Of a DNA stretch of 64,000 bases, positions 18,429 to 52,576 are shown piece by piece. Within the stretch, counting starts at the first letter, position 1, and each line of letters begins with the position of its first letter. Both the position numbers and the translations under genes were made by a program. The notes below the pieces were generated by a model. It did no database searches. It saw only the letters and a program-made list of their open reading frames with translations, and had not been told where the DNA came from. The stretch is from Proteobacteria bacterium UBA6503 (GTDB lineage Bacteria; Pseudomonadota; Alphaproteobacteria; UBA1280; UBA6503): NCBI GenBank assembly GCA_002436405.1, contig DJLZ01000001.1:58056-122055 (forward strand), read 5' to 3'.

Positions 18429-20441
18429 CTACTTATTTTGGCAATCAGGCCCCCAAAGGCCAGCCATTTTCAGGAAACTGTAGTGCTGATCTGTAAGTAC
18501 TGGGCATTTCCCCTCTTCAATGCTTGCTATTTCCCAAATATTTTCAGGGGCATTTTGCAACATTTTACCTGTAGTCTCAGACGTATAAAAGGCATACCAA
18601 GCATAGGGGTAATCATTATGTTTATTCAAAGCGGCATTGGGCGCAAAAGAGACTTTAAACCCTGCCGCATTCGCCGTTGAAACCAAGGCATTATGATGAT
18701 CAAAATAAAGACTTGGCACAATCGTCAGAATAACACCATCATGGTTTAAGCTTTTAGCATAATGCTGGAAAGCCTCTTTTGTTACAAGATGGGTTGGCAA
18801 TGTAAGGCCACTATGAGCCGTGTTAACAATCACATCATATTTAGGGCTCTCTTTCGCCGGAAAAGCAATGCGTCCATCACCGTAAACTACCTGACCTTCG
18901 CGGGCACAAACCCTCTGGAAGGTAAAGAGATTATTATCACTCGCAAGCTCAGCAACTTGAGGGTTAATCTCATAAAAATCTACAGTTTGTGTTGGCACTG
19001 TATAACATGCTGTGTTGCCCGGGCCCATACCGATTACTGCAACACTACCATCCCAATAACGGGGGGCACCAATCATGTATTGTAAGTACATTGCTGTGCG
19101 GGGAACCATACGACGCATATCTTGAAACTCGTGGGCGGTGCCATTATTGTAATAAACATGAAGCGGCCCCTCTTGCATAACTTTTAAGACACCGTAATAA
19201 CTGCGCCACTGGGCTAACGTATTGGGGATATTAAAAGCCTGCACCCAAAGCCCACACACAACCAGAACAAAGCCTACACTTAGCGTTTTAGGCATCCATT
19301 CTTTTTGAAACATAGGCCAGACAGCACCCATAAGGAGCAGAATGAAAAAAACCGGGTATTCATAAATATCATTCAAAATAACAGGCAAAATTTGCGCATT
19401 AAGCAGCCCTGCAATCATACCTGCAAAAGCAATGTAAACGTAAAACAACGCCGTATGTTTTTGCTCAGGGCGCTGCTGGTATAAACGCCCATGGCCGTAG
19501 CAACACGCCGCAAAAAAGGCGATTAAGTGCACGCCAAAAACAGACCACCCCTTTGCTCCATGCAGGAGTGCCGCGGCCGAGATCGCCAGTCCAACCGTAA
19601 TAGCAAGAACTTGCAACATACGTGGGCGCAGAATGCCAGAGAATGCCACAACATAGCTCAGCAAAAATAGCCCTAACGGCACCACCCAAATAAGTGGCAG
19701 ATTAGCAATTTCATTACTTAAATACTGTGTGTACGCGTGTAAAAGAGAGGTGGTTAAAAATGGCCAAACAAGCCAACCCCACCCATCTTTGTGCTGCACC
19801 CCCTCGTAAGGCTTTACGGATTGACGGGGCGTTACAAAATACACATAAGTCACGAGCCCCAAGAAGGTAAAGACACCCAACTTCCACATGGTTAGCAGCT
19901 GCGCCTGCTCAAACGCTGGCAATAAAAATAGCGGTGTAATTACCAAAGCGGCAAAACTACCTGCATTGCTAAAACTATAAAGTACGTAACGGTTTTTAGC
20001 AGTGCTATTTGCCAACTGTTGCTGAATAAATGGCGTTGCAATCGTTAAAAGAAGCACAGGTAACAAAATATGGTAGAGCTGACCAACAAGGGGGAGCAAG
20101 CCGATAGGCTCAGACGGGAAAGCAACGGGGATTGGCATCACTAACTGCACAGCCGTACCAATTAAAAGTACGCCAAAAATCAGTTTACTGTGCTTCGTGA
20201 ACTGACATAAAAATACCAAGCTATACCCTACAAACAACAGCGCTTGAAACGTAAACAGAAGCGTATTCCAAACTGTTGCAACGCCTCCAAATGCCATCAC
20301 CATTTGGCGCCCCCATAGGGGTTGAATCAAAAATAGTAAAAATGCCGCCAAGCCAACAGCAATAAAGCCCGCAAAAATTCTCACAAGACTAGGCATAGAT
20401 GCCACGTTATTGTGTCTATTTTGCAATTGTGCCTTTTTCAT
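18429..20441 (-). CDS. Polytopic membrane protein fused to a spermidine-synthase-like (class I methyltransferase fold) domain
   Basis: About 400 residues of repeated hydrophobic helices, followed by VAVIGMGPGNTACY, DFYEINPQV and YDVIVNTAHSG, which resemble aminopropyltransferase motifs. Confidence 0.65.
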   Translation of the reverse strand: MKKAQLQNRHNNVASMPSLVRIFAGFIAVGLAAFLLFLIQPLWGRQMVMAFGGVATVWNTLLFTFQALLFVGYSLVFLCQFTKHSKLIFGVLLIGTAVQLVMPIPVAFPSEPIGLLPLVGQLYHILLPVLLLTIATPFIQQQLANSTAKNRYVLYSFSNAGSFAALVITPLFLLPAFEQAQLLTMWKLGVFTFLGLVTYVYFVTPRQSVKPYEGVQHKDGWGWLVWPFLTTSLLHAYTQYLSNEIANLPLIWVVPLGLFLLSYVVAFSGILRPRMLQVLAITVGLAISAAALLHGAKGWSVFGVHLIAFFAACCYGHGRLYQQRPEQKHTALFYVYIAFAGMIAGLLNAQILPVILNDIYEYPVFFILLLMGAVWPMFQKEWMPKTLSVGFVLVVCGLWVQAFNIPNTLAQWRSYYGVLKVMQEGPLHVYYNNGTAHEFQDMRRMVPRTAMYLQYMIGAPRYWDGSVAVIGMGPGNTACYTVPTQTVDFYEINPQVAELASDNNLFTFQRVCAREGQVVYGDGRIAFPAKESPKYDVIVNTAHSGLTLPTHLVTKEAFQHYAKSLNHDGVILTIVPSLYFDHHNALVSTANAAGFKVSFAPNAALNKHNDYPYAWYAFYTSETTGKMLQNAPENIWEIASIEEGKCPVLTDQHYSFLKMAGLWGPDCQNK

Positions 20442-20562: not shown

Positions 20563-23500
20563 GTGAATAAGCTCAAAACCATATGTATTGATATGTGTTC
20601 TAAGCCCCTGCCCCTGTGGCGGGTTTTTGTGCTTGCAGCAGCTTTATTTACACCTGTTCTTGCCCATGCAGCAGAAGAGTCGTGGTTGCAGCGCCTCGTT
20701 TCATTTGATACAGCAAGCGCCGCCCCCGTTAATATGGCGAACAGCTATGAGCTTAGGCAAGTTAACTTTGAAACAACCTGCCTTGTAGACGGTGAAAAGT
20801 TCCGCCCCCTATTCAACCCATACATCAACAAACCTATTGATGATGCAACCGTATTGCGCTTGATGCGCCAAATTCGTTCATCGCTTGCAAAACAAGGTTT
20901 CCGTAATGTGCAGATGGGTTACCCAACATCAAAACGCCTAAATGGTGCTATTACCATTTCGATTGCGGCTGATGTGCCAAGCGCCATGCTAGCGGATGCT
21001 AAAGAGCAATGCTCAGGCAGCCCTATTCGCGTCGCAAATGCCGGTAATACAACAAACATTAGCCAAGTGCTTTTAGGCGGTATGGTTGCAGTGGACCCCT
21101 TGCCATTTGTTGCTGAAGCCCAACAAATGCGCGGTAAAAAGTTTAACTCTGTTGAGGTGATTCGCCTTATGCAGAAAATTCGTACGGCATACCGCAATGC
21201 TAAACAGCCCCTACCCTACATTTCTTTTGACCGTGAACTGGCCCATGAAGGTACTTTGCAGCTTACCGTCGTTGAGAAAAAGCGTAAGAATATTGAGCCC
21301 GAGTACGTTAGCCCGGAAGATATTCCAGTCCGTGTAGCTAAACCTGCGGCTGCACCTGCCGCAAACCCACCACAAGCCATTACGCAGGCAAAGCGGGCTC
21401 CTCAAGGCACACCAATAGCACAACCAACAGTCAAACCAGCGGTAAAGCCGACAACACCGCCAGCCAAGCCTACCAGCGAAGGCATTGAAGATAAGGGCGT
21501 GCGCGTAGCGCAGCCCAAGCCCCCAACTAAAACAATTGTGCCTGTACAACAAACCGATGAAGATAAAAAACCAAAAACACCGGATACCACTGGCCCAGCT
21601 TTTGTTTTAGCCCCGACTGCAAAACCTTCGGCTGATGCCCCAGTCGTTGTAGAACCACAAGTTCCTGCTGATTTTGACCTCTCAAAAACAGAAGACGAAT
21701 TGATTGCTGAGCAAGAGGTTACAGAAGCTGAAACCCCTGAAAATGTTGACCTTATTTTAGTCGACGATCAGGCCACAGCCTTCCTCGACGGAGAGACACC
21801 TGTTGACCTTGAATTTACTGAACGTACAGAAAACGAGCTTTTAATTCTGGAAACATTCATTGAAGGCGAACCACGCGATGAGGCGCTTCTTGCATACTCA
21901 ACCACTGATACAAAGAAGCTACTGATTTCACTGACAAGCTTTGTAAACGCACTAGGGGTGCCCATTAATGTAAACCCAGAAAGTGGCCGAGCTGAAGGCT
22001 GGTATATCACGGAAGATAACCAATTTTTACTTAACTACCCCTTTGAGCATGCTGTGATGGGGCAAAAACGCTATCAGCTTAAAGAAGGTAGCGCTGAACT
22101 ACATTTTGACGATATTTATGTTTCAGCCTCAGCACTTGAAGGTCTATTTAACGTCAATCTTGAGCTCAACTTCTCGGCTTTGCAGCTTTTCATTACCCCA
22201 AAAGAGACACTACCTTATCAAGCTAAGAATGAGCGTTACGTCAAATGGAATCAGCTGCAAAAAGCGCGCGACATGGTGAAAAACCGCCCGCAAGCCCCAC
22301 GCCAAGATATTGAGTACCAGATGGCCGCCAAACCCACTGTACGTATTGACACAAGAACGGGTGTAAACAAGCGTGATGGCTCTAGCCATGAACTTACACA
22401 AAACATTAGTGCCATTACCCAAGGCGACCTTTTTGGTTTTTCACATCAAACTGTAACCTCACTCCTAAAACAAGCAGGGGAAGATTATGAGATCGATAGC
22501 TTTGAAGTTTTGTTCAGAAAACAAGATGATAAAAACGATCTATTTGGCCCTTTGAATGCAAGCATGGTGCAGTGGGGTGATATTACACTAACACCTACGC
22601 CACTCATTGAAGGAACACGTAAGGGGCGTGGTATTGAGGTTTCTAACCAGCCTATTAGTTATGTTCGTGACCCGAACAACCTAACAATTGAAGGGTTTGC
22701 GCCACCTAACTGGGATGTTGAGGTTTTTCAGGATGAACGGCTGGTTGACTTTATTACAATCGACAGCAGCGGACGATATGAATTTACGGCCGTCCCTTTG
22801 CGCTCGGGTTTAAACATTTTCCGTATTGTAGAACACGGACCAAACGGTGAACTCCGCGAGACAACTCGTCGCTACTTCCTTGGGACTGGACAAGTTAAAG
22901 AAGGTGAGTTTTTGTATTCACTAGCAGCCCTAGAAGGCACAAAACCTCTTATTGAAATTGGCAACAATGCTGACCGCCAAGACTTAGGCTCGGCCTTCAA
23001 GTTAAACTCTTCGTATGGTTTAACACCTGAGCTTACGCTTACATCTGGCCTATACAATGGTGCCATTAACACCCTTGATACAACAGCTGCTACAGTTGGT
23101 TTGCGCGCGTCAGTATGGGAATCATTCCTACAGCTAGATACTATGGCTGAAGAAAACGGTGGGCGTATTTACAGTGCCTCTGCGCGCCGAAACTTTACGC
23201 GTACATTCCAGTTACTTGTAGGTGGTGAAACCAGCTCGGGCTTTAGCGGTACCGTCCGCCCAGATAAAAGTAGCTACTATGCACGTATTGATAATAGCAT
23301 TCAACTTGGTGAACTACACCCGATTGGTTTTTCTGTTGGTTACCGCCGCGAATTTTTCAATGATGGTCAATCGCCTGTAACACGCTGGCAGAACCGTTTA
23401 AACACATTCTTCAACCGATTTAATGTGTCAAACGAGCTTGAGCTAGAGCAGCGTGAAAATACACCAGACCTACTACAAGGTGATTTCTTAGTACGTAAAA

Positions 23501-24411
23501 ATGCTTTTGGAGGATATTGGCGCGGTCAGGTGAGTTACCGGAACCAAGAAAAGCAGTTTGATTTTGAAAGCATTAACCTACGTGGTCAGTTCCAGCTTGC
23601 CCCTACCGTCACCTATATTGGTGAAATTAACCGTACCTTGTTAAATGAAAAAGAAACCCGCCTTAATAATCGACTAACATGGGAATGGGATGCCCTACGC
23701 CTTGGGTTAGAAACCGAAATTAATAACTCTGGTGAGTACCGCCTAGGATTTAACGTAGGTACAACATTTGTACCAAATGAAATGGGTTACACCCCCATGG
23801 CTAGCCGCACAGCCTCAAGCGAAGGCAATGTATTGGTACGTGTATTCTTGGATGAAAACGAAGATAAAATTTACCAAGAAGGTGAAGAAGTTCTACCCGG
23901 CGTAACAATCCGAAACCGAAGCCGTGGCGGTACTGCCATCACAACAGATAATGGCGTCGCTGCACTGGGACGCATGGCGGTATTCCAACCAAACCAGATG
24001 CTTGTAGACTCAACAACGCTACCAGATTTTTACATGCAACCTGCCGATGCTCTAGTCAGCGTGATTGCACGCCCAGGTATTATTGGTACTGTTGATATGC
24101 CTATTTACCTACTAGGTGAAATTGCAGGTACGATTACACTTAACCAAGGCGGGGAAACTACAATTCTTGAAGGTGCACCTGTCACAATTTATGACGAAGC
24201 AGGCAAGCGTCTAAGTAGCCTCAAGTCAGAATATGATGGTTTTTACGTCTTCCCATCACTGCGTATGGGTAATTACAAGCTCGTTATCCCAGCGCAATAC
24301 CTTGAACGCTATGGCATTGAGGAACCTATCGAGGTTGCCGTTAACCTACAAGCTGAAGAGAACATCATGGACATGGTGGACATTGAAATTAACGCTGTTG
24401 CCAGTAACTAG
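20563..24411 (+). CDS. Very large outer-membrane usher-like protein (1282 aa) with an atypical N-terminal extension
   Basis: Signal-like LPLWRVFVLAAALFTPVLAHA. The mid-region NWDVEVFQDERLVDFITIDSSGRYEFTAVPLRSGLNIFRIVEHGPNGELRETTRRYF mirrors the FimD/PapC plug-proximal motif (V.V..NG......V..G.F.I......G...L.V.V.E.dG). A long Tyr/Gly/Asn-rich stretch with beta-strand character follows. The C-terminal prealbumin-like segments are GNVLVRVFLDEN and DGFYVFPSLRMGNYKLVIP. The start could be the GTG at 20563 or the ATG at 20593. Confidence 0.6.
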   Translation: MNKLKTICIDMCSKPLPLWRVFVLAAALFTPVLAHAAEESWLQRLVSFDTASAAPVNMANSYELRQVNFETTCLVDGEKFRPLFNPYINKPIDDATVLRLMRQIRSSLAKQGFRNVQMGYPTSKRLNGAITISIAADVPSAMLADAKEQCSGSPIRVANAGNTTNISQVLLGGMVAVDPLPFVAEAQQMRGKKFNSVEVIRLMQKIRTAYRNAKQPLPYISFDRELAHEGTLQLTVVEKKRKNIEPEYVSPEDIPVRVAKPAAAPAANPPQAITQAKRAPQGTPIAQPTVKPAVKPTTPPAKPTSEGIEDKGVRVAQPKPPTKTIVPVQQTDEDKKPKTPDTTGPAFVLAPTAKPSADAPVVVEPQVPADFDLSKTEDELIAEQEVTEAETPENVDLILVDDQATAFLDGETPVDLEFTERTENELLILETFIEGEPRDEALLAYSTTDTKKLLISLTSFVNALGVPINVNPESGRAEGWYITEDNQFLLNYPFEHAVMGQKRYQLKEGSAELHFDDIYVSASALEGLFNVNLELNFSALQLFITPKETLPYQAKNERYVKWNQLQKARDMVKNRPQAPRQDIEYQMAAKPTVRIDTRTGVNKRDGSSHELTQNISAITQGDLFGFSHQTVTSLLKQAGEDYEIDSFEVLFRKQDDKNDLFGPLNASMVQWGDITLTPTPLIEGTRKGRGIEVSNQPISYVRDPNNLTIEGFAPPNWDVEVFQDERLVDFITIDSSGRYEFTAVPLRSGLNIFRIVEHGPNGELRETTRRYFLGTGQVKEGEFLYSLAALEGTKPLIEIGNNADRQDLGSAFKLNSSYGLTPELTLTSGLYNGAINTLDTTAATVGLRASVWESFLQLDTMAEENGGRIYSASARRNFTRTFQLLVGGETSSGFSGTVRPDKSSYYARIDNSIQLGELHPIGFSVGYRREFFNDGQSPVTRWQNRLNTFFNRFNVSNELELEQRENTPDLLQGDFLVRKNAFGGYWRGQVSYRNQEKQFDFESINLRGQFQLAPTVTYIGEINRTLLNEKETRLNNRLTWEWDALRLGLETEINNSGEYRLGFNVGTTFVPNEMGYTPMASRTASSEGNVLVRVFLDENEDKIYQEGEEVLPGVTIRNRSRGGTAITTDNGVAALGRMAVFQPNQMLVDSTTLPDFYMQPADALVSVIARPGIIGTVDMPIYLLGEIAGTITLNQGGETTILEGAPVTIYDEAGKRLSSLKSEYDGFYVFPSLRMGNYKLVIPAQYLERYGIEEPIEVAVNLQAEENIMDMVDIEINAVASN

Positions 24412-24603
24412 ACTAGTAACTAAGCGAGTAACTAGAGACAGAGCCTTTCATTAAACCTTCACAGGTTCATAGGGCCATTCCACACAGACAATGAGCATGC
24501 ACGCAGCACGCCGCACTAAGACTACAACCCCTCACCCTTCAAGACTTCATTAAGGGCTCATATAGCCCCTCTTCAGTACAAACACCAATAAGTACTTAGG
24601 ACA

Positions 24604-24636
24604 TAAAAAAAGGCCCCAGACGTACATCTGAGACCT
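24604..24636 (-). terminator. Strand-specific rho-independent terminator ending the fibre-subunit/chaperone operon
   Basis: On the minus-strand RNA, AGGUCUCAGA / UCUGGGGCCU form a 10-bp stem (two G-U wobbles) with a 6-nt loop, followed by U7. On the plus strand the same positions are C-A mismatches. Confidence 0.7.
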
Positions 24637-24652
24637 TTAAAATTAGGAGAAA

Positions 24653-25462
24653 TTATAGAGTAATTTTCTCTTCTGTAATCACTTCAGCTCCAGGCTCTGG
24701 GCTTACGTAGAGACGAAGAACAAAAGTCCCTTTAGCTGTAATCTCAGGCAGTAGCGGCACTGTACGTTCAATGCGGTCAACCTCGCGGTAGATACGCACC
24801 CACATCGGTGATGATGCAACTTCTTCACCTGCTGGTGTTTCTTTAAAAATACGAAGGAAGCCATTTGCTTCAGCATTACCGCCGCGCTTAAATTCAACAG
24901 TCATCCCCTTCGGTTCTGCTTGGGGTGTCACTGTACCGAATGAAAGATCTGATTCAACAGTACCGGCCTGCACAATAACAGGGATAGCCACCCCGTAACG
25001 GGCACCAACTTCAAAGCTGAAAGTACGGTCTTCGTCTGTATTTTGTTCAACAGGCTCTTCAACTTGTTGTTCACGGAAAAGCATATGAGTATGATAGTCA
25101 CCATCTGCAAGGTCGCGCGGACGACGCACCATTACACGTACTGTTTGGCGTTCGCCAGGCTCAAGCTCAACAGAGCGTGGCACATAGCGCAACATACGCT
25201 TAGCTGAATATTCAAATGTATCAACACGTTTCGTAGCTCCAGCTTCAGTCATAACACTATCAATCAGTGTAATTTCGTAGCGGCGCTTATAGTCAGATTG
25301 GTTGGCAACTGTTACTTCTGTTGTGCGGTCGCCAGAGGCAATCACAGCACGGTGGGGCGAAATAAATAGCAGACTGCTAGCTGATGCATTGTAAGCCAAG
25401 CCTCCACCAACAACTACACATACGGTTAGAACTTTGAACAAGTTAGATAATTTCATATTCAT
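24653..25462 (-). CDS. PapD-like periplasmic fibre chaperone
   Basis: Signal peptide, then LLFISPHRAVIASGDRTTEVTVANQSD..YEITL and VELEPGERQTVRVMVRRP. This is the typical pili-assembly-chaperone N-domain pattern (isP.r......evtv.N.s......L.PG..q.vRv). Confidence 0.7.
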   Translation of the reverse strand: MNMKLSNLFKVLTVCVVVGGGLAYNASASSLLFISPHRAVIASGDRTTEVTVANQSDYKRRYEITLIDSVMTEAGATKRVDTFEYSAKRMLRYVPRSVELEPGERQTVRVMVRRPRDLADGDYHTHMLFREQQVEEPVEQNTDEDRTFSFEVGARYGVAIPVIVQAGTVESDLSFGTVTPQAEPKGMTVEFKRGGNAEANGFLRIFKETPAGEEVASSPMWVRIYREVDRIERTVPLLPEITAKGTFVLRLYVSPEPGAEVITEEKITL

Positions 25463-25542
25463 TCGCTTTTATTATTAATATATTCTTACACACATATGGA
25501 ACAAGCCATAAAATCAAATATTTTCGAAGTTTAGCACTAGTT

Positions 25543-26091
25543 TTATTGATAAACCACATCAAAAAGCATTGAGGTGCCACCCGGGTTATCGGTTGCATAA
25601 TACCCTGGTCCAATTGGGATACCACCAGTACCATCAATGCGTGTACCAATTAAGACTGTGTTATAAACACCGAAAAACAGAGTAATTGAAAGAACCGTAT
25701 TACCAATACCGTTGCACGTTGCACCTGTACCAAAGGGCCCAGTGCCAAATACGCTTGAAACCTCAACCTCTGAAATGAGTAGTGCCGAGCCTGCGCTGTT
25801 TGTCATGACGGCTGTTGGATTACACGAAATATCAACTCGGTTAAAAAAGCCACCGCCAATTTGAAAACGCCCTGGAACACCAACACCTGTACCAGAATAC
25901 CCGGGGCCATAAGCAATTGCGCCATTGGCACCCATATCGATATTACCATTTGCACCCGCAACATAATCAATAGTTCCATAAGCGCTATCTACAACATTAG
26001 AAAAGCTAATCATACCACCAGCAGCAGCAAATTGGGCGCTCATCACGCCGCAAATAGCCGATAATACCAGTAGTTTAATTTGCTTCTTCAT
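25543..26091 (-). CDS. Secreted fibre subunit-like protein (DUF4402-like), 182 aa
   Basis: Signal peptide MKKQIKLLVLSAICGVMSAQFAAA, Gly-rich, and a Cys pair (DISCNPT ... GATCNGIG). The C-terminal tail MLFDVVYQ resembles the FimA tail FKVQYQ. Confidence 0.6.
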   Translation of the reverse strand: MKKQIKLLVLSAICGVMSAQFAAAGGMISFSNVVDSAYGTIDYVAGANGNIDMGANGAIAYGPGYSGTGVGVPGRFQIGGGFFNRVDISCNPTAVMTNSAGSALLISEVEVSSVFGTGPFGTGATCNGIGNTVLSITLFFGVYNTVLIGTRIDGTGGIPIGPGYYATDNPGGTSMLFDVVYQ

Positions 26092-26162
26092 TCTCTTACC
26101 TTACGGGAGTCTTCTCCTCATTACAAACGTTGAAATGAACACTTAGTTCCGCAGTGAGTACC

Positions 26163-26813
26163 TTAAATATAATTAATCTCAAAAGATACTGGCTGCCCAT
26201 CTGGGTTTGAGGTTGTGTAGCGGGCGGCCGCAAGTTTATTGCTTACTTGTACGCGGGCGCCAATAAACAAGGTGTTGTCATCAGACTGAGAGGTAATAAC
26301 ATGGCTAATTGCTGGGGCCGCATCACCTGCACACTGAACACCTTCACCATAATCGCCAGTATTTTGTGTACCTGCAGCAACCTCAACATCGGAAATCGGC
26401 ATTTTTTGAAAACCGCTTGATAAAGCACCTTCCTTAGAACAGCTAACCTGCACAATTTCACCTTCTACACCTTTAATAACAACTGAGGCACCTGATACTT
26501 TAGCCAAAAGCTCTCGGCTCTTGAGGTCAGTCACATTTTGATTTGTACCGATACCCAAATCACCTTTTGGCAGACGACGCAGTTGGAACATCACATGAAA
26601 AAGTTCAAATGTTGAAGCCGCAATAAAATTAACATAGGCCTCAATGTAAATTGAACTTGTTCCCTTAGAGCGGAGGTTGGTTGCACTGTAAGACGAAAAT
26701 GGGAAAAACGCGACCACTGCCGATGCAAGAATTAAAACAGGGGCAAGGTATCGTTTAACACGAAGACTATGCCCCTGGTTTAATGCTGATGACTCTGTCG
26801 CAAATTTTTTCAA
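26163..26813 (-). CDS. Fibre subunit-like protein (DUF4402-like), 216 aa, with a long atypical N-terminus
   Basis: A hydrophobic segment LAPVLILASAVVAFFPF follows a 23-residue polar start. It has a Cys pair (VSCSKEG ... GVQCAGDA) and the C-terminal tail VSFEINYI. Confidence 0.55.
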   Translation of the reverse strand: MKKFATESSALNQGHSLRVKRYLAPVLILASAVVAFFPFSSYSATNLRSKGTSSIYIEAYVNFIAASTFELFHVMFQLRRLPKGDLGIGTNQNVTDLKSRELLAKVSGASVVIKGVEGEIVQVSCSKEGALSSGFQKMPISDVEVAAGTQNTGDYGEGVQCAGDAAPAISHVITSQSDDNTLFIGARVQVSNKLAAARYTTSNPDGQPVSFEINYI

Positions 26814-26897
26814 TTTACATCTACCTGCAAAAGTTAAAAGTTATAGTTATTAAAGTTTAAGTCTTACCCTCTACTTATATAAATTCTTTTGCCAGTG

Positions 26898-26938
26898 GAG
26901 TGCTACCAACTTAAAGGGGGATCTAAGCGGTAGCACTC
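26898..26938 (-). promoter_or_regulatory. Intercistronic stem-loop just downstream of the first (major) subunit gene
   Basis: Perfect 10-bp stem GAGTGCTACC (26898..26907) / GGTAGCACTC (26929..26938) with a 21-nt loop. It lies 34 nt after the stop of the 199-aa gene and has no U-run. Confidence 0.4.
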
Positions 26939-26971
26939 TTAGCGGAGACTGGCTAAAGATTTACATCTTTC

Positions 26972-27571
26972 TTACTGGTACTGTACATCCAGTTGGATTG
27001 GGTCACCACCAGCAAGGGTTGTGCTATGAGGGGCGTTAGCAAAAGCTGCTGCTGTTGCACCGTCAATTGTGCCACCCATAAGGATAGTGTTGTTTGTTGC
27101 CAAGTCTAGCACTGGGCTAAGAGCTGCAACACCTAGGCCAGCACAAGCTGTACCTGCACCACCTGCTACACCTGTTTCCATTACGATTTCAACTGCGTTA
27201 ACATCAATTGATGAACCAGCACCATCGGTTAGGGTACCTGAGGCTTCACAAAAGATATCTAGAGTAGCGCCATCTGTACCTGTAGTAATATCAACGTTAC
27301 CTTCAGTACCTGTACCGTTTCCTGAGAAGTTACCTGCGTACACAATGTTAGCGTCAGTACCTAGTACGGCAGTATCACCACCTGCAGGAGCTGCTGCTAC
27401 TTCAATTGTGTTAAATTCCATGTCTGTGTTTTTAACAAGTGTTAGCGCTGCCAAGAAGTTGGCGTTAGCGTCAACCTGAACTGTTGCTGCGTATGCTGCT
27501 GTAGCACCGCCTGCGATTAATGCTGTTACTGCTAGTGCACTCGTGTATTTTTTCATCGTTAGTTTCATCAT
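26972..27571 (-). CDS. Probable major fibre subunit (DUF4402-like), 199 aa
   Basis: It is the first gene of the operon, with a GGAG 7 nt before the ATG. It has the signal peptide ALAVTALIAGGATAAYA/ATV, is Gly/Thr/Ala-rich, carries a Cys pair (DIFCEASG ... GTACAGLG), and ends in the tail IQLDVQYQ. Confidence 0.65.
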   Translation of the reverse strand: MMKLTMKKYTSALAVTALIAGGATAAYAATVQVDANANFLAALTLVKNTDMEFNTIEVAAAPAGGDTAVLGTDANIVYAGNFSGNGTGTEGNVDITTGTDGATLDIFCEASGTLTDGAGSSIDVNAVEIVMETGVAGGAGTACAGLGVAALSPVLDLATNNTILMGGTIDGATAAAFANAPHSTTLAGGDPIQLDVQYQ

Positions 27572-43594: not shown

Positions 43595-43942
43595 GCAGTT
43601 TGCCTAGGTTATCGCACGCCCAGCGTGAGGAAAGTCCGGGCACCACAAAGGAGGATGCCGGATAACGTCCGGCGGGGAGCATGAGCTCCTTAGGGAAAGT
43701 GGCGCAGAAAATATACCGCCTGTATTTAGATATAGGTAAGGGTGAAATGGTGGAGTAAGAGCCCACCGCCTCGCTGGCAACAGCCGAGGGCAGGCTAAAC
43801 CCCATCCGGTGCAAGACCAAATAGGAACCCCGCTTAACCGTACCTTGCGGAAGGGGTTCGGGTAGGTCGCTAGAGGTAGCGAGTAATCGCCACCCCAGAT
43901 GAATGATAATCCACGACAAAACCCGGCTTATCGGGCAAACTG
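43595..43942 (+). ncRNA. rnpB: RNase P RNA, bacterial type A
   Basis: The universal P4 strands GAGGAAAGTCCGGGC (5') and ACAAAACCCGGCTTATCG (3') are present, as is GGTAAGGGTGAAATGGTGGAGTAAGAGCCCACC. The P1 helix GCAGTTTGCC (43595..43604) / GGCAAACTGC (43933..43942) defines the ends. Confidence 0.9.
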
Positions 43943-43944
43943 CA

Positions 43945-43977
43945 TAAAAAAGCCCCCATGCACTTGGGGGCTTTTTT
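43945..43977. terminator. Terminator after rnpB, shared with the convergent MaoC gene
   Basis: GCCCCCA / TGGGGGC stem with a 6-nt loop. An A6 run precedes it and a T6 run follows. Confidence 0.75.
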
Positions 43978-47736: not shown

Positions 47737-49827
47737 ATGCCCATCAAAAAGAACGTAACGCCGCCCACAGCGACGAAAGTTCAGAAGAACATTACCCAGC
47801 ACGGCAAGACCCGGCGTGATGATTACGCTTGGTTGAAGGACGTGAACTGGCAAGCTGTTCTGAAGGACCCTTCGAAGCTCGACGCTGCAATTCGTGCGCA
47901 TCTCGATGCGGAAAATGCTTACACCAATGCCGTAACGGCGCCGCTCGCTCAGCTTCAGGAAGAACTCTTCCAGGAGATGAAGGGCCGCCTTGCGGACGAT
48001 GACAGTTCGGCACCTATGCGTGACGGCCCTTACCTGTATTACCGCAGGGAAGAAGCCGGCAAGCAGTACCCGATTTACTGCCGCAAGGCGGATGAATCGG
48101 CAGACGAAGAAGTCTACTTCGATGTGAACGTTGCGGCCGATGGCCTCGACTTTTACAAGAACGCAGCGCTTGCGGTCAGCCCTGACCACACAATGCTTGC
48201 AATCGTCGAAGATACCAACGGCAGCGAGATCTACACCCTGCGTGTGATCAACATTGCCACGGGCAAGCAAGTTGGCCAGTCGGTCAGCGGGCTTGGCGGC
48301 AGCCTCGTCTGGGCGAACGACAACAAGACCCTGTTCTACACCATCGTGGATGACAACCACCGTCCGTGCGCCGTAAAGCGCCACGTGCTGGGCACTGACC
48401 CCTCAACGGATAAGGAAGTCTACCGCGAGAAGGACGCAGGGTACTTCATGTCGCTCGGCAAGTCGTCGGATGACTCGTACATCTTCTTGCGTATCGGGAG
48501 CCATACCACCACCGAGTGGCGGTTCATGAAGGCGAACAAGCCCACGGGCACGTTCGATGTCTTCGCCGAGCGTATCGATGACGAGGAATACGACCTCGAC
48601 TTCGCCGACGGAACCTTCTACATCGTCACCAACAAGGATGGCGCTGTGGATAGCAAAATCTGCACCTGCCCGGAAGCGACGCCTGGTCGAGCCAATATGG
48701 TCGACTTGGTGCCCTACCAGCAAGGCACGCTCATCGAGGGGATTCACCTCGTCGATGGCTACCTGCTGCGTCAGGAAATGCATGATGCGCTGCCGCGTAT
48801 CATCATTCGCAACCTCAAGACTGGCGAAGAAAAGGCCATTTCCTTCCCGGAAGAAGCCTTCAACCTTTCGCTGGTTGGCAGTTACGAGTACAACACGAGC
48901 GTGGTGCGCTTCGTGTATAACTCGCCGTCTACGCCGGCTCAGACCTATGACTACGATGTCGCTACCGACAGCCGTACCATGGTCAAGCAGCAGGAAGTGC
49001 CCAGTGGGCATAACCCGGCCGATTATGTGGTCCGTCGCCTTACGGCAACGAGCCATGACGGTGCACAGGTTCCGATTACCGTTCTGCATCACAAAGACAC
49101 GCCTATAGATGGTTCTGCGCCGATGTGGTTGTACGGCTACGGCTCGTACGGTCACGCTATTCCGGCGTCGTTCTCGACGATTCGCCTTGCCATGGTCAAC
49201 CGTGGGTTCGTGTTTGCTGTCGCTCACATCCGTGGCGGCACCGAGCGTGGCCAACAGTGGTACCTGGACGCAAAGAAGGATAAGAAGGTTAACACCTTCC
49301 ATGACTTCATTGCGGCGGCTGATCATCTGATCGACCAGAACTACACGACGGCCGGCAATATCTACGCTGAAGGGCGTAGTGCTGGTGGTCTGTTGATGGG
49401 TGCTGTGACCAACATGCGGCCTGAGCTGTGGAAGATGGTACACCTTGGTGTGCCGTTCGTGGACGTGCTGAACACCATCAGTGACGACACGCTTCCGCTG
49501 ACGCCGCCGGAGTGGCCGGAATGGGGTAACCCCATCACCGACGCTGCGGCTTACGATGATATCGAGGCTTACTGCCCGTATCACAACCTCGAGGCAAAGG
49601 CGTATCCGCATACGCTGATTACCTCGTCGTTGACGGACTACCGCGTCACCTACTGGGAGCCTGCCAAGTACGCGGCCAAAATGCGTGAAGTCAACACGGC
49701 TGATACGCTGACCATCATGAAGATGGAAATGGCCACGGGTCATGGCGGTGCCTCTGGGCGTTTCGATAGTCTGCGTGAAAGCGCATTCGAAATTGCTCTG
49801 GTACTTGCCATCTTTAACAAGGCATAA
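47737..49827 (+). CDS. ptrB: Oligopeptidase B (S9A prolyl-oligopeptidase family), compositionally foreign
   Basis: RRDDYAWLKD..NW at the N-terminus, a beta-propeller region, then the catalytic GRSAGGLL serine elbow and a C-terminal ATGHGG histidine. A hand-counted 100-nt sample (48301..48400) has 61 G+C. AAG, CTC/CTG, GCG and TCG codons are used where neighbouring genes use AAA, CTT and GCC. Confidence 0.9.
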   Translation: MPIKKNVTPPTATKVQKNITQHGKTRRDDYAWLKDVNWQAVLKDPSKLDAAIRAHLDAENAYTNAVTAPLAQLQEELFQEMKGRLADDDSSAPMRDGPYLYYRREEAGKQYPIYCRKADESADEEVYFDVNVAADGLDFYKNAALAVSPDHTMLAIVEDTNGSEIYTLRVINIATGKQVGQSVSGLGGSLVWANDNKTLFYTIVDDNHRPCAVKRHVLGTDPSTDKEVYREKDAGYFMSLGKSSDDSYIFLRIGSHTTTEWRFMKANKPTGTFDVFAERIDDEEYDLDFADGTFYIVTNKDGAVDSKICTCPEATPGRANMVDLVPYQQGTLIEGIHLVDGYLLRQEMHDALPRIIIRNLKTGEEKAISFPEEAFNLSLVGSYEYNTSVVRFVYNSPSTPAQTYDYDVATDSRTMVKQQEVPSGHNPADYVVRRLTATSHDGAQVPITVLHHKDTPIDGSAPMWLYGYGSYGHAIPASFSTIRLAMVNRGFVFAVAHIRGGTERGQQWYLDAKKDKKVNTFHDFIAAADHLIDQNYTTAGNIYAEGRSAGGLLMGAVTNMRPELWKMVHLGVPFVDVLNTISDDTLPLTPPEWPEWGNPITDAAAYDDIEAYCPYHNLEAKAYPHTLITSSLTDYRVTYWEPAKYAAKMREVNTADTLTIMKMEMATGHGGASGRFDSLRESAFEIALVLAIFNKA

Positions 49828-49964
49828 GGCATTGTAATTCATTGCCCGAGCATCGCTCTACGGCAATGAACTGGCGTTCCGCCAGACCTGTCGGCAACCT
49901 TTGACCTTCGGTCACGGGATGCCGTCCTACCCGCTTTCGGCGGGCAGTGCCCTTATAACGACTA

Positions 49965-52500: not shown

Positions 52501-52576
52501 TGGTAGGCGTGGAGGGACTTGAACCCCCGACCAAGGCATTATGAGTGCCCTGCTCTAACCACTGAGCTACACGCCC
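52501..52576 (-). tRNA. tRNA with a CAT anticodon (Met by anticodon; overall closest by eye to the lysidine-modified tRNA-Ile2 type), CCA encoded
   Basis: The reverse complement is GGGCGTG TA GCTC AGTGGTTA GAGC A GGGCA CTCATAA TGCCT TGGTC GGGGG TTCAAGT CCCTC CACGCCT A CCA, which folds as a full cloverleaf. The D-arm, anticodon loop and T-arm closely resemble E. coli ileX. Confidence 0.9.

What the first reader, a model, noticed from the sequence alone, without database searches (positions are those of the whole stretch)
20563..27571. Non-canonical chaperone-usher-like fibre locus built on three DUF4402-like, FimA-tailed subunits
Seen:
- A minus-strand operon (27571 to 24653) encodes three secreted Gly/Thr/Ala-rich proteins of 199, 216 and 182 aa and a 269-aa protein with the PapD-like chaperone pattern. 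It ends at a strand-specific terminator (24604..24636).
- A 1282-aa outer-membrane protein with usher-like core motifs is encoded convergently, not in the operon.
- All three subunits end in hydrophobic-x-hydrophobic-x-Y-x (LDVQYQ, FEINYI, FDVVYQ), the same tail as E. coli FimA (FKVQYQ). Each has one conserved Cys pair.

Established: chaperone-usher assembly works by donor-strand complementation.

Inference:
- From memory the subunits belong to the uncharacterised DUF4402 family, not to classical fimbrial or SCPU/Csu pilins.
- I know of no experimentally characterised fibre of this type.
- The gene order, usher size and usher N-terminus all depart from the alpha/beta/gamma/kappa/pi/sigma usher clades.
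Basis: partly seen in the sequence, partly recalled or inferred. Interest (0 to 1): 0.75.

Follow-up and report, generated by a model that had tools for sequence, protein, structure and literature searches.

The report
Hidden chaperone-usher pilus with POTRA-fused usher
This locus most likely encodes a very divergent chaperone-usher pilus: three pilin-like subunits, a PapD-like chaperone, and an outer-membrane usher that sequence databases miss, which here carries two extra POTRA domains and belongs to a large, unstudied family.

Summary
All five ORFs, the C-terminal subunit motif, the Cys pairs and the minus-strand terminator are present at or near the stated coordinates.

- **Usher:** the C-terminal 863 aa of the 1282-aa protein model confidently (pLDDT 88.6). 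The model shows an N-terminal domain, a 24-strand barrel with a plug between strands 6 and 7, and two C-terminal domains. The top 18 PDB matches are all FimD or PapC (E down to 1.5e-29). Pfam Usher/PapC models do not detect it.
- **Subunit:** the subunit 1 model (pLDDT 87.3) matches only chaperone-usher pilins at the top (FimA, CfaB, CS17), with weak E-values (0.025-0.14).
- **Chaperone:** the 269-aa protein belongs to a family in which 30 of 40 members weakly hit PapD_N.
- **Co-occurrence:** the genes co-occur in 23 of 32 reference-genome loci, and in cultured Polaromonas and Sphingopyxis.
- **Family size:** 6,680 clusters at 50% identity, annotated only as "carboxypeptidase regulatory-like" or hypothetical.
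- **Specific to this clade:** the usher gene is inverted and fused to two POTRA_2 domains through a Pro-rich linker.
- **Subunit 3:** it lacks the N-terminal donor strand and evolves fast, so it is probably the tip.

Donor-strand exchange and an actual fibre were not shown. I rate it a new variant of a known kind.

The parts
26972..27571 (-). Subunit 1 (199 aa): putative major pilin. It has a signal peptide, an N-terminal extension of about 15 residues with alternating small or hydrophobic residues (ATVQVDANANFLAAL), a DUF4402-like Ig domain, a Cys108-Cys143 pair and the C-terminal strand LDVQYQ.
   Evidence: ORF. DUF4402 E = 0.0033, below the cutoff. AF2 model pLDDT 87.3, with residues 25-43 unstructured and strands from residue 44. 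The top 14 Foldseek hits are all CU pilins, including FimA, CfaB and CS17. dN/dS 0.13.
26814..26971 (-). Intercistronic RNA hairpin immediately after the subunit 1 gene. Likely a transcript-stabilising or attenuating element that raises major-subunit output.
   Evidence: MFE -45 kcal/mol, z = -4.13, 0 of 200 shuffles as stable. The relative L001 has a hairpin at the same place with changes on both arms of the stem.
26163..26813 (-). Subunit 2 (216 aa by longest ORF; the orthologue is called at 206 aa): pilin-like paralogue with an N-terminal extension. Ends FEINYI. Cys125-Cys161.
   Evidence: ORF. Matches the subunit HMM at 8e-57. Aligned with the other subunits. dN/dS 0.09.
25543..26091 (-). 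Subunit 3 (182 aa): pilin-like paralogue that lacks the N-terminal extension, so the mature protein starts almost at the A strand. Ends FDVVYQ. Cys90-Cys126. Putative tip (first-incorporated) subunit.
   Evidence: The alignment shows the missing extension. The same two-class pattern recurs across loci, always in the gene next to the chaperone. Its orthologue in L001 hits DUF4402. It evolves fast: 50% identity and dN/dS 0.38, against 0.06-0.13 for the other genes.
24653..25462 (-). Periplasmic PapD-like chaperone (269 aa) with a signal peptide. The conserved Arg37 in SPHRAVI aligns with FimC Arg8.
   Evidence: PapD_N E = 0.033 in the window protein. 71 homologues, several with precomputed PF00345 and NCBI names such as 'fimbria/pilus periplasmic chaperone'. 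30 of 40 family members hit PapD_N, best 1.9e-6. hhalign to FimC residues 32-112.
24609..24638 (-). Intrinsic terminator ending the minus-strand four-gene operon.
   Evidence: 13-bp stem, 4-nt loop, then TTTTTATG.
20563..21330 (+). Usher N-terminal addition: signal peptide plus two tandem ShlB-type POTRA domains (about residues 64-133 and 165-238).
   Evidence: POTRA_2 E = 2.5e-9, 37.3 bits against a cutoff of 24, two stretches. Each half scores about 24 bits on its own. The same fusion occurs in P0076, P0142, L007 and L008.
21331..21819 (+). Pro/Ala/Thr/Lys-rich low-complexity linker (about 150 aa) between the POTRA pair and the usher module.
   Evidence: 17% Pro and 14% Ala. Poorly conserved and variable in length among relatives.
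21820..24411 (+). Usher module (863 aa): N-terminal domain, 24-strand beta-barrel with a 6-strand plug between strands 6 and 7, a PapC_C-like CTD1, and a CarboxypepD_reg/SdrD_B-like CTD2.
   Evidence: AF2 pLDDT 88.6, pTM 0.73, with the secondary-structure layout. The top 18 Foldseek PDB hits are all FimD or PapC, E from 1.5e-29 to 4e-15. hhalign places module residues 704-761 on FimD 735-791. CarboxypepD_reg/SdrD_B domain at the C-terminus. dN/dS 0.09.

Best explanation
The locus encodes a highly divergent chaperone-usher (CU) pilus system.

**Proposed mechanism.**
1. The three DUF4402-like subunits are exported by Sec.
2. In the periplasm, the 269-aa PapD-like chaperone captures each one. It supplies the beta-strand that the subunit's Ig-like fold lacks, next to the C-terminal strand with the pattern hydrophobic-x-hydrophobic-x-Tyr-x.
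3. Chaperone-subunit complexes dock on the 1282-aa outer-membrane protein. Its C-terminal 863 residues form an usher: a 24-strand barrel, a plug, an N-terminal domain and two C-terminal domains.
4. At the usher, the N-terminal extension of the incoming subunit replaces the chaperone strand (donor-strand exchange), and the fibre grows out through the barrel.
5. Subunit 3 has no N-terminal extension, so it can only accept a strand. It should enter first and form the distal tip, possibly acting as an adhesin. Subunit 1 is the major repeating subunit: it is the first gene and is followed by a conserved hairpin. Subunit 2 is an adaptor or minor subunit.
6. The two POTRA domains and the Pro-rich tether are a clade-specific periplasmic add-on. 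It most likely anchors or positions the usher. Less likely, it helps capture subunits.

**Shown:** the folds of the usher module and of subunit 1, remote PapD_N membership of the chaperone family, gene co-occurrence, purifying selection, and the presence or absence of the N-terminal extension.

**Inferred:** donor-strand complementation and exchange, subunit order in the fibre, the role of the POTRA pair, and the existence of a fibre at all.
For: **Usher.**
- AF2 model pLDDT 88.6 with the usher domain order.
- The top 18 Foldseek PDB hits are exclusively FimD or PapC, E from 1.5e-29 to 4e-15, over about 900 aligned columns.
- Weak PF00577 hit in the closest representative, P0076: E = 2.3e-4, barrel positions 316-526.
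- A PapC_C-like segment aligns to FimD 735-791 at the equivalent position.

**Subunits.**
- Subunit 1 model pLDDT 87.3. The mature N-terminal ~15 residues are unstructured, and the protein ends right after its last strand.
- 14 of the top 14 Foldseek hits are CU pilins, probability up to 0.99, TM-score up to 0.53.
- 64 of 67 related subunits keep the alternating hydrophobic C-terminal strand.
- 11 of 18 hit DUF4402.

**Chaperone.**
- 30 of 40 family members hit PapD_N.
- NCBI names some members 'fimbria/pilus periplasmic chaperone'.
- The conserved Arg aligns to FimC Arg8.

**Context.**
- Chaperone, subunit(s) and usher lie within 8 kb in 23 of 32 GTDB loci, mostly in the order subunit-subunit-chaperone-usher.
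- The same locus occurs on plasmids of cultured Polaromonas sp. JS666 and Sphingopyxis indica.
- The distant relative P0004 (23% identity) lies in a co-directional operon with two DUF4402 genes and a chaperone-sized gene.

**Selection.** dN/dS is 0.06-0.13 for four genes, and 0.38 for the subunit that lacks the extension.

**Operon features.** Terminator and a conserved hairpin after subunit 1.
Against: - No Pfam Usher, PapC_N, PapC_C, PapD_C, Fimbrial or SCPU hit reaches threshold in any window protein, or in 50 usher-family members.
- Profile searches of the PDB by sequence find no usher, chaperone or pilin.
- hhalign probabilities against FimD, FimC and FimA are only 1-4%.
- Foldseek E-values for the subunit are weak (0.025-0.3).
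- The chaperone fold was not modelled.
- The chaperone-subunit interaction could not be modelled.
- The usher gene is not in the same transcription unit as the other four genes.
- 7 of 32 loci show no usher within the flank.
- No expression or microscopy data exist.
Confidence: 0.8

Rival explanations
1. The same machinery builds a thin, flexible polyadhesin or an amorphous capsule-like surface layer, as the FGL-chaperone systems Caf1 and Saf do. It still works through chaperone, usher and donor-strand exchange, but it does not make a pilus rod with a defined tip.
For: The subunits are single-domain. The window has no two-domain adhesin. The Foldseek matches are generic to CU pilins. The chaperone has a long insert between its two domains.
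Against: Two conserved subunit classes, with and without the N-terminal extension, in a fixed gene position across loci argue for an ordered fibre with a distinct first subunit. Some relatives encode double-length (366-381 aa) DUF4402 proteins that could be two-domain tips.
Confidence: 0.12
2. The 1282-aa protein is a POTRA-bearing Omp85/TpsB-type transporter (two-partner secretion), or another non-usher outer-membrane protein. It exports the small proteins as soluble or surface-attached monomers without polymerisation.
For: Two POTRA_2 (ShlB-type) domains lie at the N-terminus, above Pfam's cutoff. The gene is transcribed separately and convergently. Public annotation says only 'carboxypeptidase regulatory-like'.
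Against: The barrel module matches ushers only. No Omp85, FhaC or ShlB structure appears among the top 50 hits, and the topology is 24 strands with an internal plug rather than 16 strands. Most family members have no POTRA at all, and some carry AMIN or Cu_amine_oxidN1 at that position instead. There are no Pfam ShlB or Bac_surface_Ag hits. There is no TpsA-like substrate with a TPS domain in the locus.
Confidence: 0.04
3. The adjacency of the convergent large gene to the four-gene operon is coincidental or a relic, and the genes do not act together in this organism.
For: Opposite strand and separate promoter and terminator signals. 7 of 32 chaperone loci lack a detectable usher nearby.
Against: The same convergent pairing is kept in L001, L002, L007 and L008 at 84% down to about 40-50% identity. 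The three gene types co-occur in 23 of 32 loci and in distant Beta- and Alphaproteobacteria. All genes are intact and under purifying selection.
Confidence: 0.04

Closest known systems
Classical chaperone-usher pili (type 1 Fim: FimA/FimC/FimD; P pili: PapA/PapD/PapC)
   Same: - The usher has the same domain order and topology: NTD, 24-strand barrel with a plug between strands 6 and 7, CTD1 and CTD2. FimD and PapC are the best structural matches.
- The pilin fold is closest to FimA, CfaB and CS17.
- The C-terminal strand ends ...VQYQ, as in FimA.
- The chaperone Arg aligns with FimC Arg8.
- In most relatives the gene order is subunit(s), chaperone, usher.
- There is a hairpin after the first subunit gene.
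   Different: - Identity is 11-14% and below every Pfam threshold for Usher, PapC_N/C, PapD_C and Fimbrial.
- CTD2 is a CarboxypepD_reg/SdrD_B-type domain.
- A long helix follows the NTD.
- The subunits are DUF4402-type, with a Cys pair about 35 residues apart.
- In this window the usher is inverted and carries two POTRA domains plus a Pro-rich tether.
- The hosts are uncultured Alphaproteobacteria and Micavibrio-like MAGs.
Archaic (sigma-clade) chaperone-usher pili: Csu of Acinetobacter baumannii, CupE of Pseudomonas aeruginosa (SCPU-domain pilins)
   Same: A widespread environmental CU system with small, Cys-containing, single-domain pilins and several minor subunits. The N-terminal donor motif with alternating residues resembles that of Csu-type pilins; this comparison rests on my own knowledge of CsuA/B and was not tested here.
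   Different: There is no SCPU (PF05229) hit in any of 18 subunits. As far as I know, sigma ushers do belong to Pfam Usher, whereas this family does not reach the cutoff. No Csu or CupE chain appears in the top 50 Foldseek hits for the subunit, while FimA and CfaB do.
Two-partner secretion transporters (TpsB: FhaC, ShlB)
   Same: ShlB-type POTRA domains at the periplasmic N-terminus of an outer-membrane barrel protein.
   Different: The barrel is an usher, not a 16-strand Omp85 barrel. The POTRA pair is separated from the barrel module by a linker of about 150 residues and by a complete usher NTD. The locus has no TpsA substrate.

Membership tests
Chaperone-usher pathway (functional/structural class) | Outer-membrane usher: 24-strand barrel with an internal plug, a periplasmic NTD and C-terminal domains | tested here: met
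   AF2 model pLDDT 88.6. The secondary-structure string gives 6 + 18 barrel strands, with a 6-strand insert after strand 6. The top 18 Foldseek hits are all FimD or PapC, E down to 1.5e-29.
Chaperone-usher pathway (functional/structural class) | Periplasmic two-domain PapD-like chaperone with a conserved cleft Arg | tested here: inconclusive
   The window protein hits PapD_N at E = 0.033, below the cutoff. 30 of 40 family members hit PapD_N, best 1.9e-6. The nearly invariant Arg37 aligns to FimC Arg8.
Chaperone-usher pathway (functional/structural class) | Pilin subunits with an Ig-like fold that lacks the final strand, a C-terminal F strand with a penultimate aromatic residue, and an N-terminal donor extension | tested here: inconclusive
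   The fold matches CU pilins: 14 of the top 14 hits, probability up to 0.99, but E only 0.025-0.14. The protein ends at its last strand, and the mature N-terminus is unstructured. The C-terminal motif is present in 64 of 67 subunits. The groove itself was not inspected because no coordinates were available.
Chaperone-usher pathway (functional/structural class) | Donor-strand complementation by the chaperone and donor-strand exchange between subunits | not testable with these tools
No multimer modelling is available.
Chaperone-usher pathway (functional/structural class) | Genes for subunit(s), chaperone and usher are clustered and co-inherited | tested here: met
   23 of 32 GTDB loci have all three. 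Also L001, L002 and L004-L007, and plasmids of cultured Polaromonas and Sphingopyxis.
Pfam Usher (PF00577) / PapC_N / PapC_C, i.e. the alpha-sigma usher clades as defined by sequence | Score at or above the curated gathering cutoff | tested here: not met
   No hit at E <= 1 in the window protein. No hit at E <= 0.1 in 50 family members. One sub-threshold hit in P0076, 20.6 bits against a cutoff of 27.1.
Pfam DUF4402 (PF14352) | Score at or above the curated gathering cutoff (25.2 bits) | tested here: inconclusive
   Window subunit 1 scores 18.5 bits (E = 0.0033), and subunits 2 and 3 have no hit. However, 11 of 18 aligned orthologues and paralogues hit, best E = 7.4e-28, including the orthologue of subunit 3 in L001. 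The window proteins are remote members of the same superfamily.
Pfam Fimbrial (PF00419) and SCPU (PF05229) pilins | Any significant profile match | tested here: not met
   No hits at E <= 0.1 in 18 subunits or at E <= 1 in the window subunits.
TpsB / Omp85 transporters | POTRA domain(s) followed directly by a 16-strand Omp85-type barrel (Pfam ShlB/Bac_surface_Ag) | tested here: not met
   The POTRA_2 domains are present. The barrel is usher-type, and there is no ShlB or Bac_surface_Ag hit.

The most novel reading that the evidence does not exclude
The POTRA-usher fusion could be a true mechanistic hybrid. On this reading, the tethered ShlB-type POTRA pair does more than anchor the usher. It would capture incoming subunits, or chaperone-subunit complexes, by beta-augmentation and feed them to the usher N-terminal domain. 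That would link the Omp85/TpsB way of handling substrates to the chaperone-usher pathway.

More broadly, the DUF4402/CarboxypepD_reg-usher systems would form a seventh major clade of chaperone-usher machines. The clade is unrecognised, has at least 6,680 clusters at 50% identity, and may have its own fibre architecture.
Probability: 0.15. Interest if true: 0.8.

Novelty: new variant of a known kind. Interest (0 to 1): 0.62.

Why it matters
Chaperone-usher pili are the best-understood bacterial adhesins and are drug and vaccine targets. Their catalogue rests on the Pfam Usher family and the alpha-to-sigma clades.

- **A missed clade.** This work shows a large set of usher homologues that sequence models miss and that databases label "carboxypeptidase regulatory-like" or "hypothetical". 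The set has 6,680 clusters at 50% identity, of which 2,216 score E <= 1e-30. These ushers are consistently paired with a PapD-like chaperone and DUF4402 proteins.
- **A likely function for DUF4402.** It is probably a pilin. This extends the chaperone-usher pathway into uncultured marine and freshwater Alphaproteobacteria, including Micavibrio-like predators, where adhesion to prey or particles matters.
- **A variable periplasmic module.** In this clade the usher N-terminus carries POTRA, AMIN or Cu_amine_oxidN1 domains. I found no published description of this for ushers.
- **Testable now.** Cultured carriers exist, such as Polaromonas sp. JS666, Sphingopyxis and Novosphingobium.

Tried and rejected
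- **Word-limited homologue search.** Searching with the 1282-aa protein gave only 4 hits and wrongly suggested rarity. The exhaustive profile search corrected this.
- **Sequence-only searches of the PDB.** Searches with single proteins and with family profiles found no usher, chaperone or pilin. The only hit was the SdrD-B-like C-terminal domain.
- **hhalign against single E. coli sequences.** FimD, FimC and FimA gave positionally sensible alignments but very low probabilities of 1-4%. I use these only as supporting detail.
- **Literature.** Searches for DUF4402, PF14352, POTRA with usher, Micavibrio with usher, and 'carboxypeptidase regulatory-like' with usher found nothing on this system. 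The CryoSeek TLP-1 fibrils (PMC11494351) are donor-strand fibres from a Flavobacteriales protein. I did not compare them with this family, so no link can be stated either way.
- **Signal-peptide predictor.** My crude predictor was unreliable. The call on the presence or absence of the N-terminal extension rests on the alignment position of the DMxFG motif and on inspection instead.
- **TpsB reading.** I rejected the TpsB reading of the POTRA protein on fold grounds.

Full report
**1. Observation.**

- three small minus-strand genes at 27571-26972 (199 aa), 26813-26163 (216 aa) and 26091-25543 (182 aa);
- a 269-aa gene at 25462-24653;
- a convergent plus-strand gene at 20563-24411 (1282 aa).

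Database copies of the large protein start ten codons later, at the ATG at 20593 (MCSKPL...), giving 1272 aa. All five proteins begin with signal-peptide-like sequences.

The subunits end in LDVQYQ, FEINYI and FDVVYQ, and each has one Cys pair about 35 residues apart. E. coli K-12 FimA, fetched for comparison, ends in FKVQYQ. A minus-strand intrinsic terminator (13-bp stem, T-run) lies at 24638-24609.

'Gly/Thr/Ala-rich' is true of subunit 1 (45%) and subunit 3 (35%, with 18% Gly), but not of subunit 2 (24%).

**2. What sequence profiles say.**

Pfam gives only sub-threshold hints:
- subunit 1 hits DUF4402 at E = 0.0033;
- subunits 2 and 3 hit nothing;
- the 269-aa protein hits PapD_N at E = 0.033, among several Ig-like families;
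- the large protein has no Usher, PapC_N or PapC_C hit.

Instead, the large protein has a significant ShlB-type POTRA_2 match at the N-terminus (37.3 bits against a cutoff of 24). This resolves into two tandem domains at about residues 64-133 and 165-238. It also has a CarboxypepD_reg/SdrD_B-like domain at the extreme C-terminus.

NCBIfam has nothing for the five proteins. Sequence searches of the PDB, with single proteins or family profiles, find no usher, chaperone or pilin.

**3. The large protein is an usher by fold.**

Alignment with relatives shows a conserved C-terminal module of about 860 residues. A 23%-identical, 899-aa protein that has no POTRA region (P0004) shares this module. In the window protein it is preceded by the POTRA pair and a linker of about 150 residues rich in Pro, Ala, Thr and Lys.

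An exhaustive profile search with this module found 6,680 cluster representatives at 50% identity (E <= 1e-3), of which 2,216 score E <= 1e-30. Most are 850-1000 aa long. The first, word-limited search had found only four.

A 50-sequence alignment gave a confident AlphaFold2 model (mean pLDDT 88.6, pTM 0.73). Its secondary-structure layout, in order, is:
- an N-terminal beta-domain;
- a long helix;
- six barrel strands;
- a six-strand beta-sandwich insert;
- eighteen more barrel strands;
- two C-terminal beta-domains.

That is a 24-strand barrel with a plug between strands 6 and 7, flanked by an NTD, CTD1 and CTD2. Foldseek against the PDB returned FimD and PapC ushers as all 18 top hits, with E from 1.5e-29 to 4e-15 and alignments of about 900 columns at 11-14% identity.

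Two weak sequence links agree with the fold:
- the closest representative, P0076, has a sub-threshold PF00577 hit (E = 2.3e-4) over barrel positions 316-526;
- hhalign places module residues 704-761 on FimD 735-791, the PapC_C-type domain, at the equivalent position.

None of the 50 family members reaches Pfam's Usher threshold. Public records call these proteins 'hypothetical' or 'carboxypeptidase regulatory-like domain-containing'.

**4. The subunits are pilin-like.**

Eighteen subunit genes from the window and related loci align to one another. Eleven of them hit DUF4402, with a best E of 7.4e-28. The window's proteins are therefore remote members of that superfamily.

A model of subunit 1 built from a 21-sequence alignment is confident (pLDDT 87.3, and at least 93 from residue 40 onward). 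The signal peptide and the following ~15 mature residues are unstructured. The beta-sandwich starts at residue 44, and the chain ends directly after its last strand.

Foldseek's top 14 PDB hits are all chaperone-usher pilins: CfaB, FimA in several states, CS17 and FimG. Probabilities reach 0.99 and TM-scores 0.53, but E-values are modest at 0.025-0.14. No Csu or CupE (archaic) pilin is in the top 50.

Across 67 non-redundant related subunits, 64 have hydrophobic residues at positions -2, -4 and -6, and 50 have an aromatic penultimate residue.

**5. Two subunit classes.**

Subunits 1 and 2, and their counterparts elsewhere, carry a 14-16-residue N-terminal extension before the conserved DMxFG A-strand motif. 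The extension alternates small or hydrophobic residues, for example ATVQVDANANF and TDIDVDATMTA.

Subunit 3, and in other loci the gene directly upstream of the chaperone, starts almost at that motif. The motif sits 13-17 residues closer to the start codon in this class, for example at residue 35 against 50 in the window, and at 33 against 48 in L027.

In chaperone-usher systems, established knowledge is that a subunit without a donor strand can only be the first one incorporated, which puts it at the distal tip. In line with an exposed tip role, subunit 3 is only 50% identical to its orthologue in L001 (dN/dS 0.38). The other four genes are 75-91% identical, with dN/dS of 0.06-0.13. Tip placement is an inference.

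**6. The chaperone.**

The 269-aa protein has 71 detectable relatives. Several carry precomputed PF00345 hits, and NCBI names some 'fimbria/pilus periplasmic chaperone' or 'molecular chaperone'. Thirty of 40 aligned members hit PapD_N at E <= 0.01.

Arg37, in the motif SPHRAVI, is nearly invariant. It aligns with Arg8 of FimC in GATRVIY, the residue that anchors the subunit C-terminus in classical chaperones. The nearly invariant stretch G-D-Y-H-x-H-L-L-F-x-E is a candidate donor (G1) strand; this is an inference.

**7. Co-occurrence.**

The 84%-identical relative keeps the whole arrangement, including the neighbouring argS gene (L001, L002). The 23%-identical relative P0004 sits in a co-directional operon: DUF4402, unknown, DUF4402, a 283-aa chaperone-sized protein, then the usher.

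A scan of one genome per species found 32 loci through the chaperone. Almost all are in uncultured Alphaproteobacteria, Micavibrio-like and related MAGs, and the closest is 51% identical. HMM scans show chaperone, subunit(s) and usher within 8 kb in 23 of the 32 loci, usually in the order subunit-subunit-chaperone-usher.

The inverted, POTRA-bearing usher is confined to the window's clade (L001, L002, L007, L008). L005 and L010 have the usher gene placed divergently upstream.

Cultured Polaromonas sp. JS666 and Sphingopyxis indica carry the canonical locus on plasmids. RefSeq annotates it as DUF4402 / fimbria-pilus periplasmic chaperone / carboxypeptidase-like regulatory domain protein.

**8. 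Other operon features.**

The 158-nt gap after the subunit 1 gene folds into a strong hairpin (-45 kcal/mol, z = -4.1). L001 has a hairpin at the same position whose stem differs on both arms. By analogy with classical pilus operons, this fits subunit 1 being the abundant major subunit; that analogy rests on my own knowledge.

Other long members of the usher family carry AMIN or Cu_amine_oxidN1 domains where the window protein has POTRA. This suggests a variable periplasmic anchoring or positioning module rather than a core catalytic part. This too is an inference.

**9. Verdict.**

The best explanation, at a confidence of about 0.8, is a very divergent chaperone-usher pilus system. Its usher and pilin relationships are visible by fold, the chaperone's by weak family-level profile hits, and none of them through the standard sequence models.

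It works like a chaperone-usher system. It is not a member of Pfam Usher, Fimbrial or SCPU as those families are currently defined.

Not shown here: donor-strand complementation and exchange, the actual fibre, subunit order in the fibre, and the role of the POTRA pair.

I found no publication on DUF4402 systems in the searchable library. That library omits many subscription journals, so absence there is not proof.

I rate it a new variant of a known kind. Two things are notable: the size of the overlooked clade, and the POTRA-usher fusion.

Noticed in passing
window 26814-26971 (-): Strong intercistronic RNA hairpin right after the first subunit gene (-45 kcal/mol, z = -4.1). The 84%-identity relative L001 (9600-9880) has a hairpin at the same place with a different stem sequence, consistent with compensatory change.
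   Followed up: partly
window 18429-20441 (-): A 670-aa protein resembling a fused MFS/spermidine synthase (NF037959, E = 7e-12) lies just upstream of the usher gene, transcribed divergently from it. It stays next to the usher in L001 and L003. This may be synteny by descent rather than a functional link.
   Followed up: partly
L014 8892-10037; L017 2538-3674 and 3819-4940; L018 1368-2498; L023 6855-7955: Double-length (366-381 aa) proteins matching the DUF4402-like subunit HMM sit next to the chaperone in some loci. They could be two-domain tip adhesins (FimH/PapG-like). L014, L017 and L018 show no usher within the fetched flank.
   Followed up: no
L006 6925-12665 and 14064-18827; L033 680-4856 and 6379-11860; L036 53-4119 and 6577-11540: Some genomes carry two complete or near-complete subunit-chaperone-usher sets side by side, which suggests tandem duplication and diversification of the system.
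   Followed up: no
L005 6914-8221 (-); L006 12648-14069 (-): An apolipoprotein N-acyltransferase gene (LNT_N / CN_hydrolase) is embedded in or directly adjacent to the pilus locus in two unrelated MAGs. In L010 the gap of about 1.5 kb between subunit genes at the equivalent position may hold the same gene; I did not check.
   Followed up: no
L041 (Polaromonas sp. JS666 plasmid 2, NC_007950.1 62154-74664): The canonical DUF4402 / chaperone / 'carboxypeptidase-like' usher locus is flanked on both sides by IS6-family transposase genes on a conjugative plasmid. This suggests the system can move as a composite-transposon-like unit.
   Followed up: no
P0136, P0213, P0148, P0110 (usher-family representatives): Long members of the usher family carry different N-terminal modules in place of POTRA: AMIN (a peptidoglycan-binding type) or Cu_amine_oxidN1. 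The periplasmic N-terminal add-on is therefore a variable cassette.
   Followed up: partly
window 47737-49842: A local GC spike (0.57 against about 0.46-0.50 elsewhere) coincides with long overlapping ORFs on both strands: 696 aa (+) and 479 aa (-). I did not examine it.
   Followed up: no
window 43596-43946 (+) and 52504-52576 (-): A bacterial class A RNase P RNA (296.6 bits) and one tRNA gene. These are ordinary chromosomal features and confirm a bacterial chromosomal context.
   Followed up: yes
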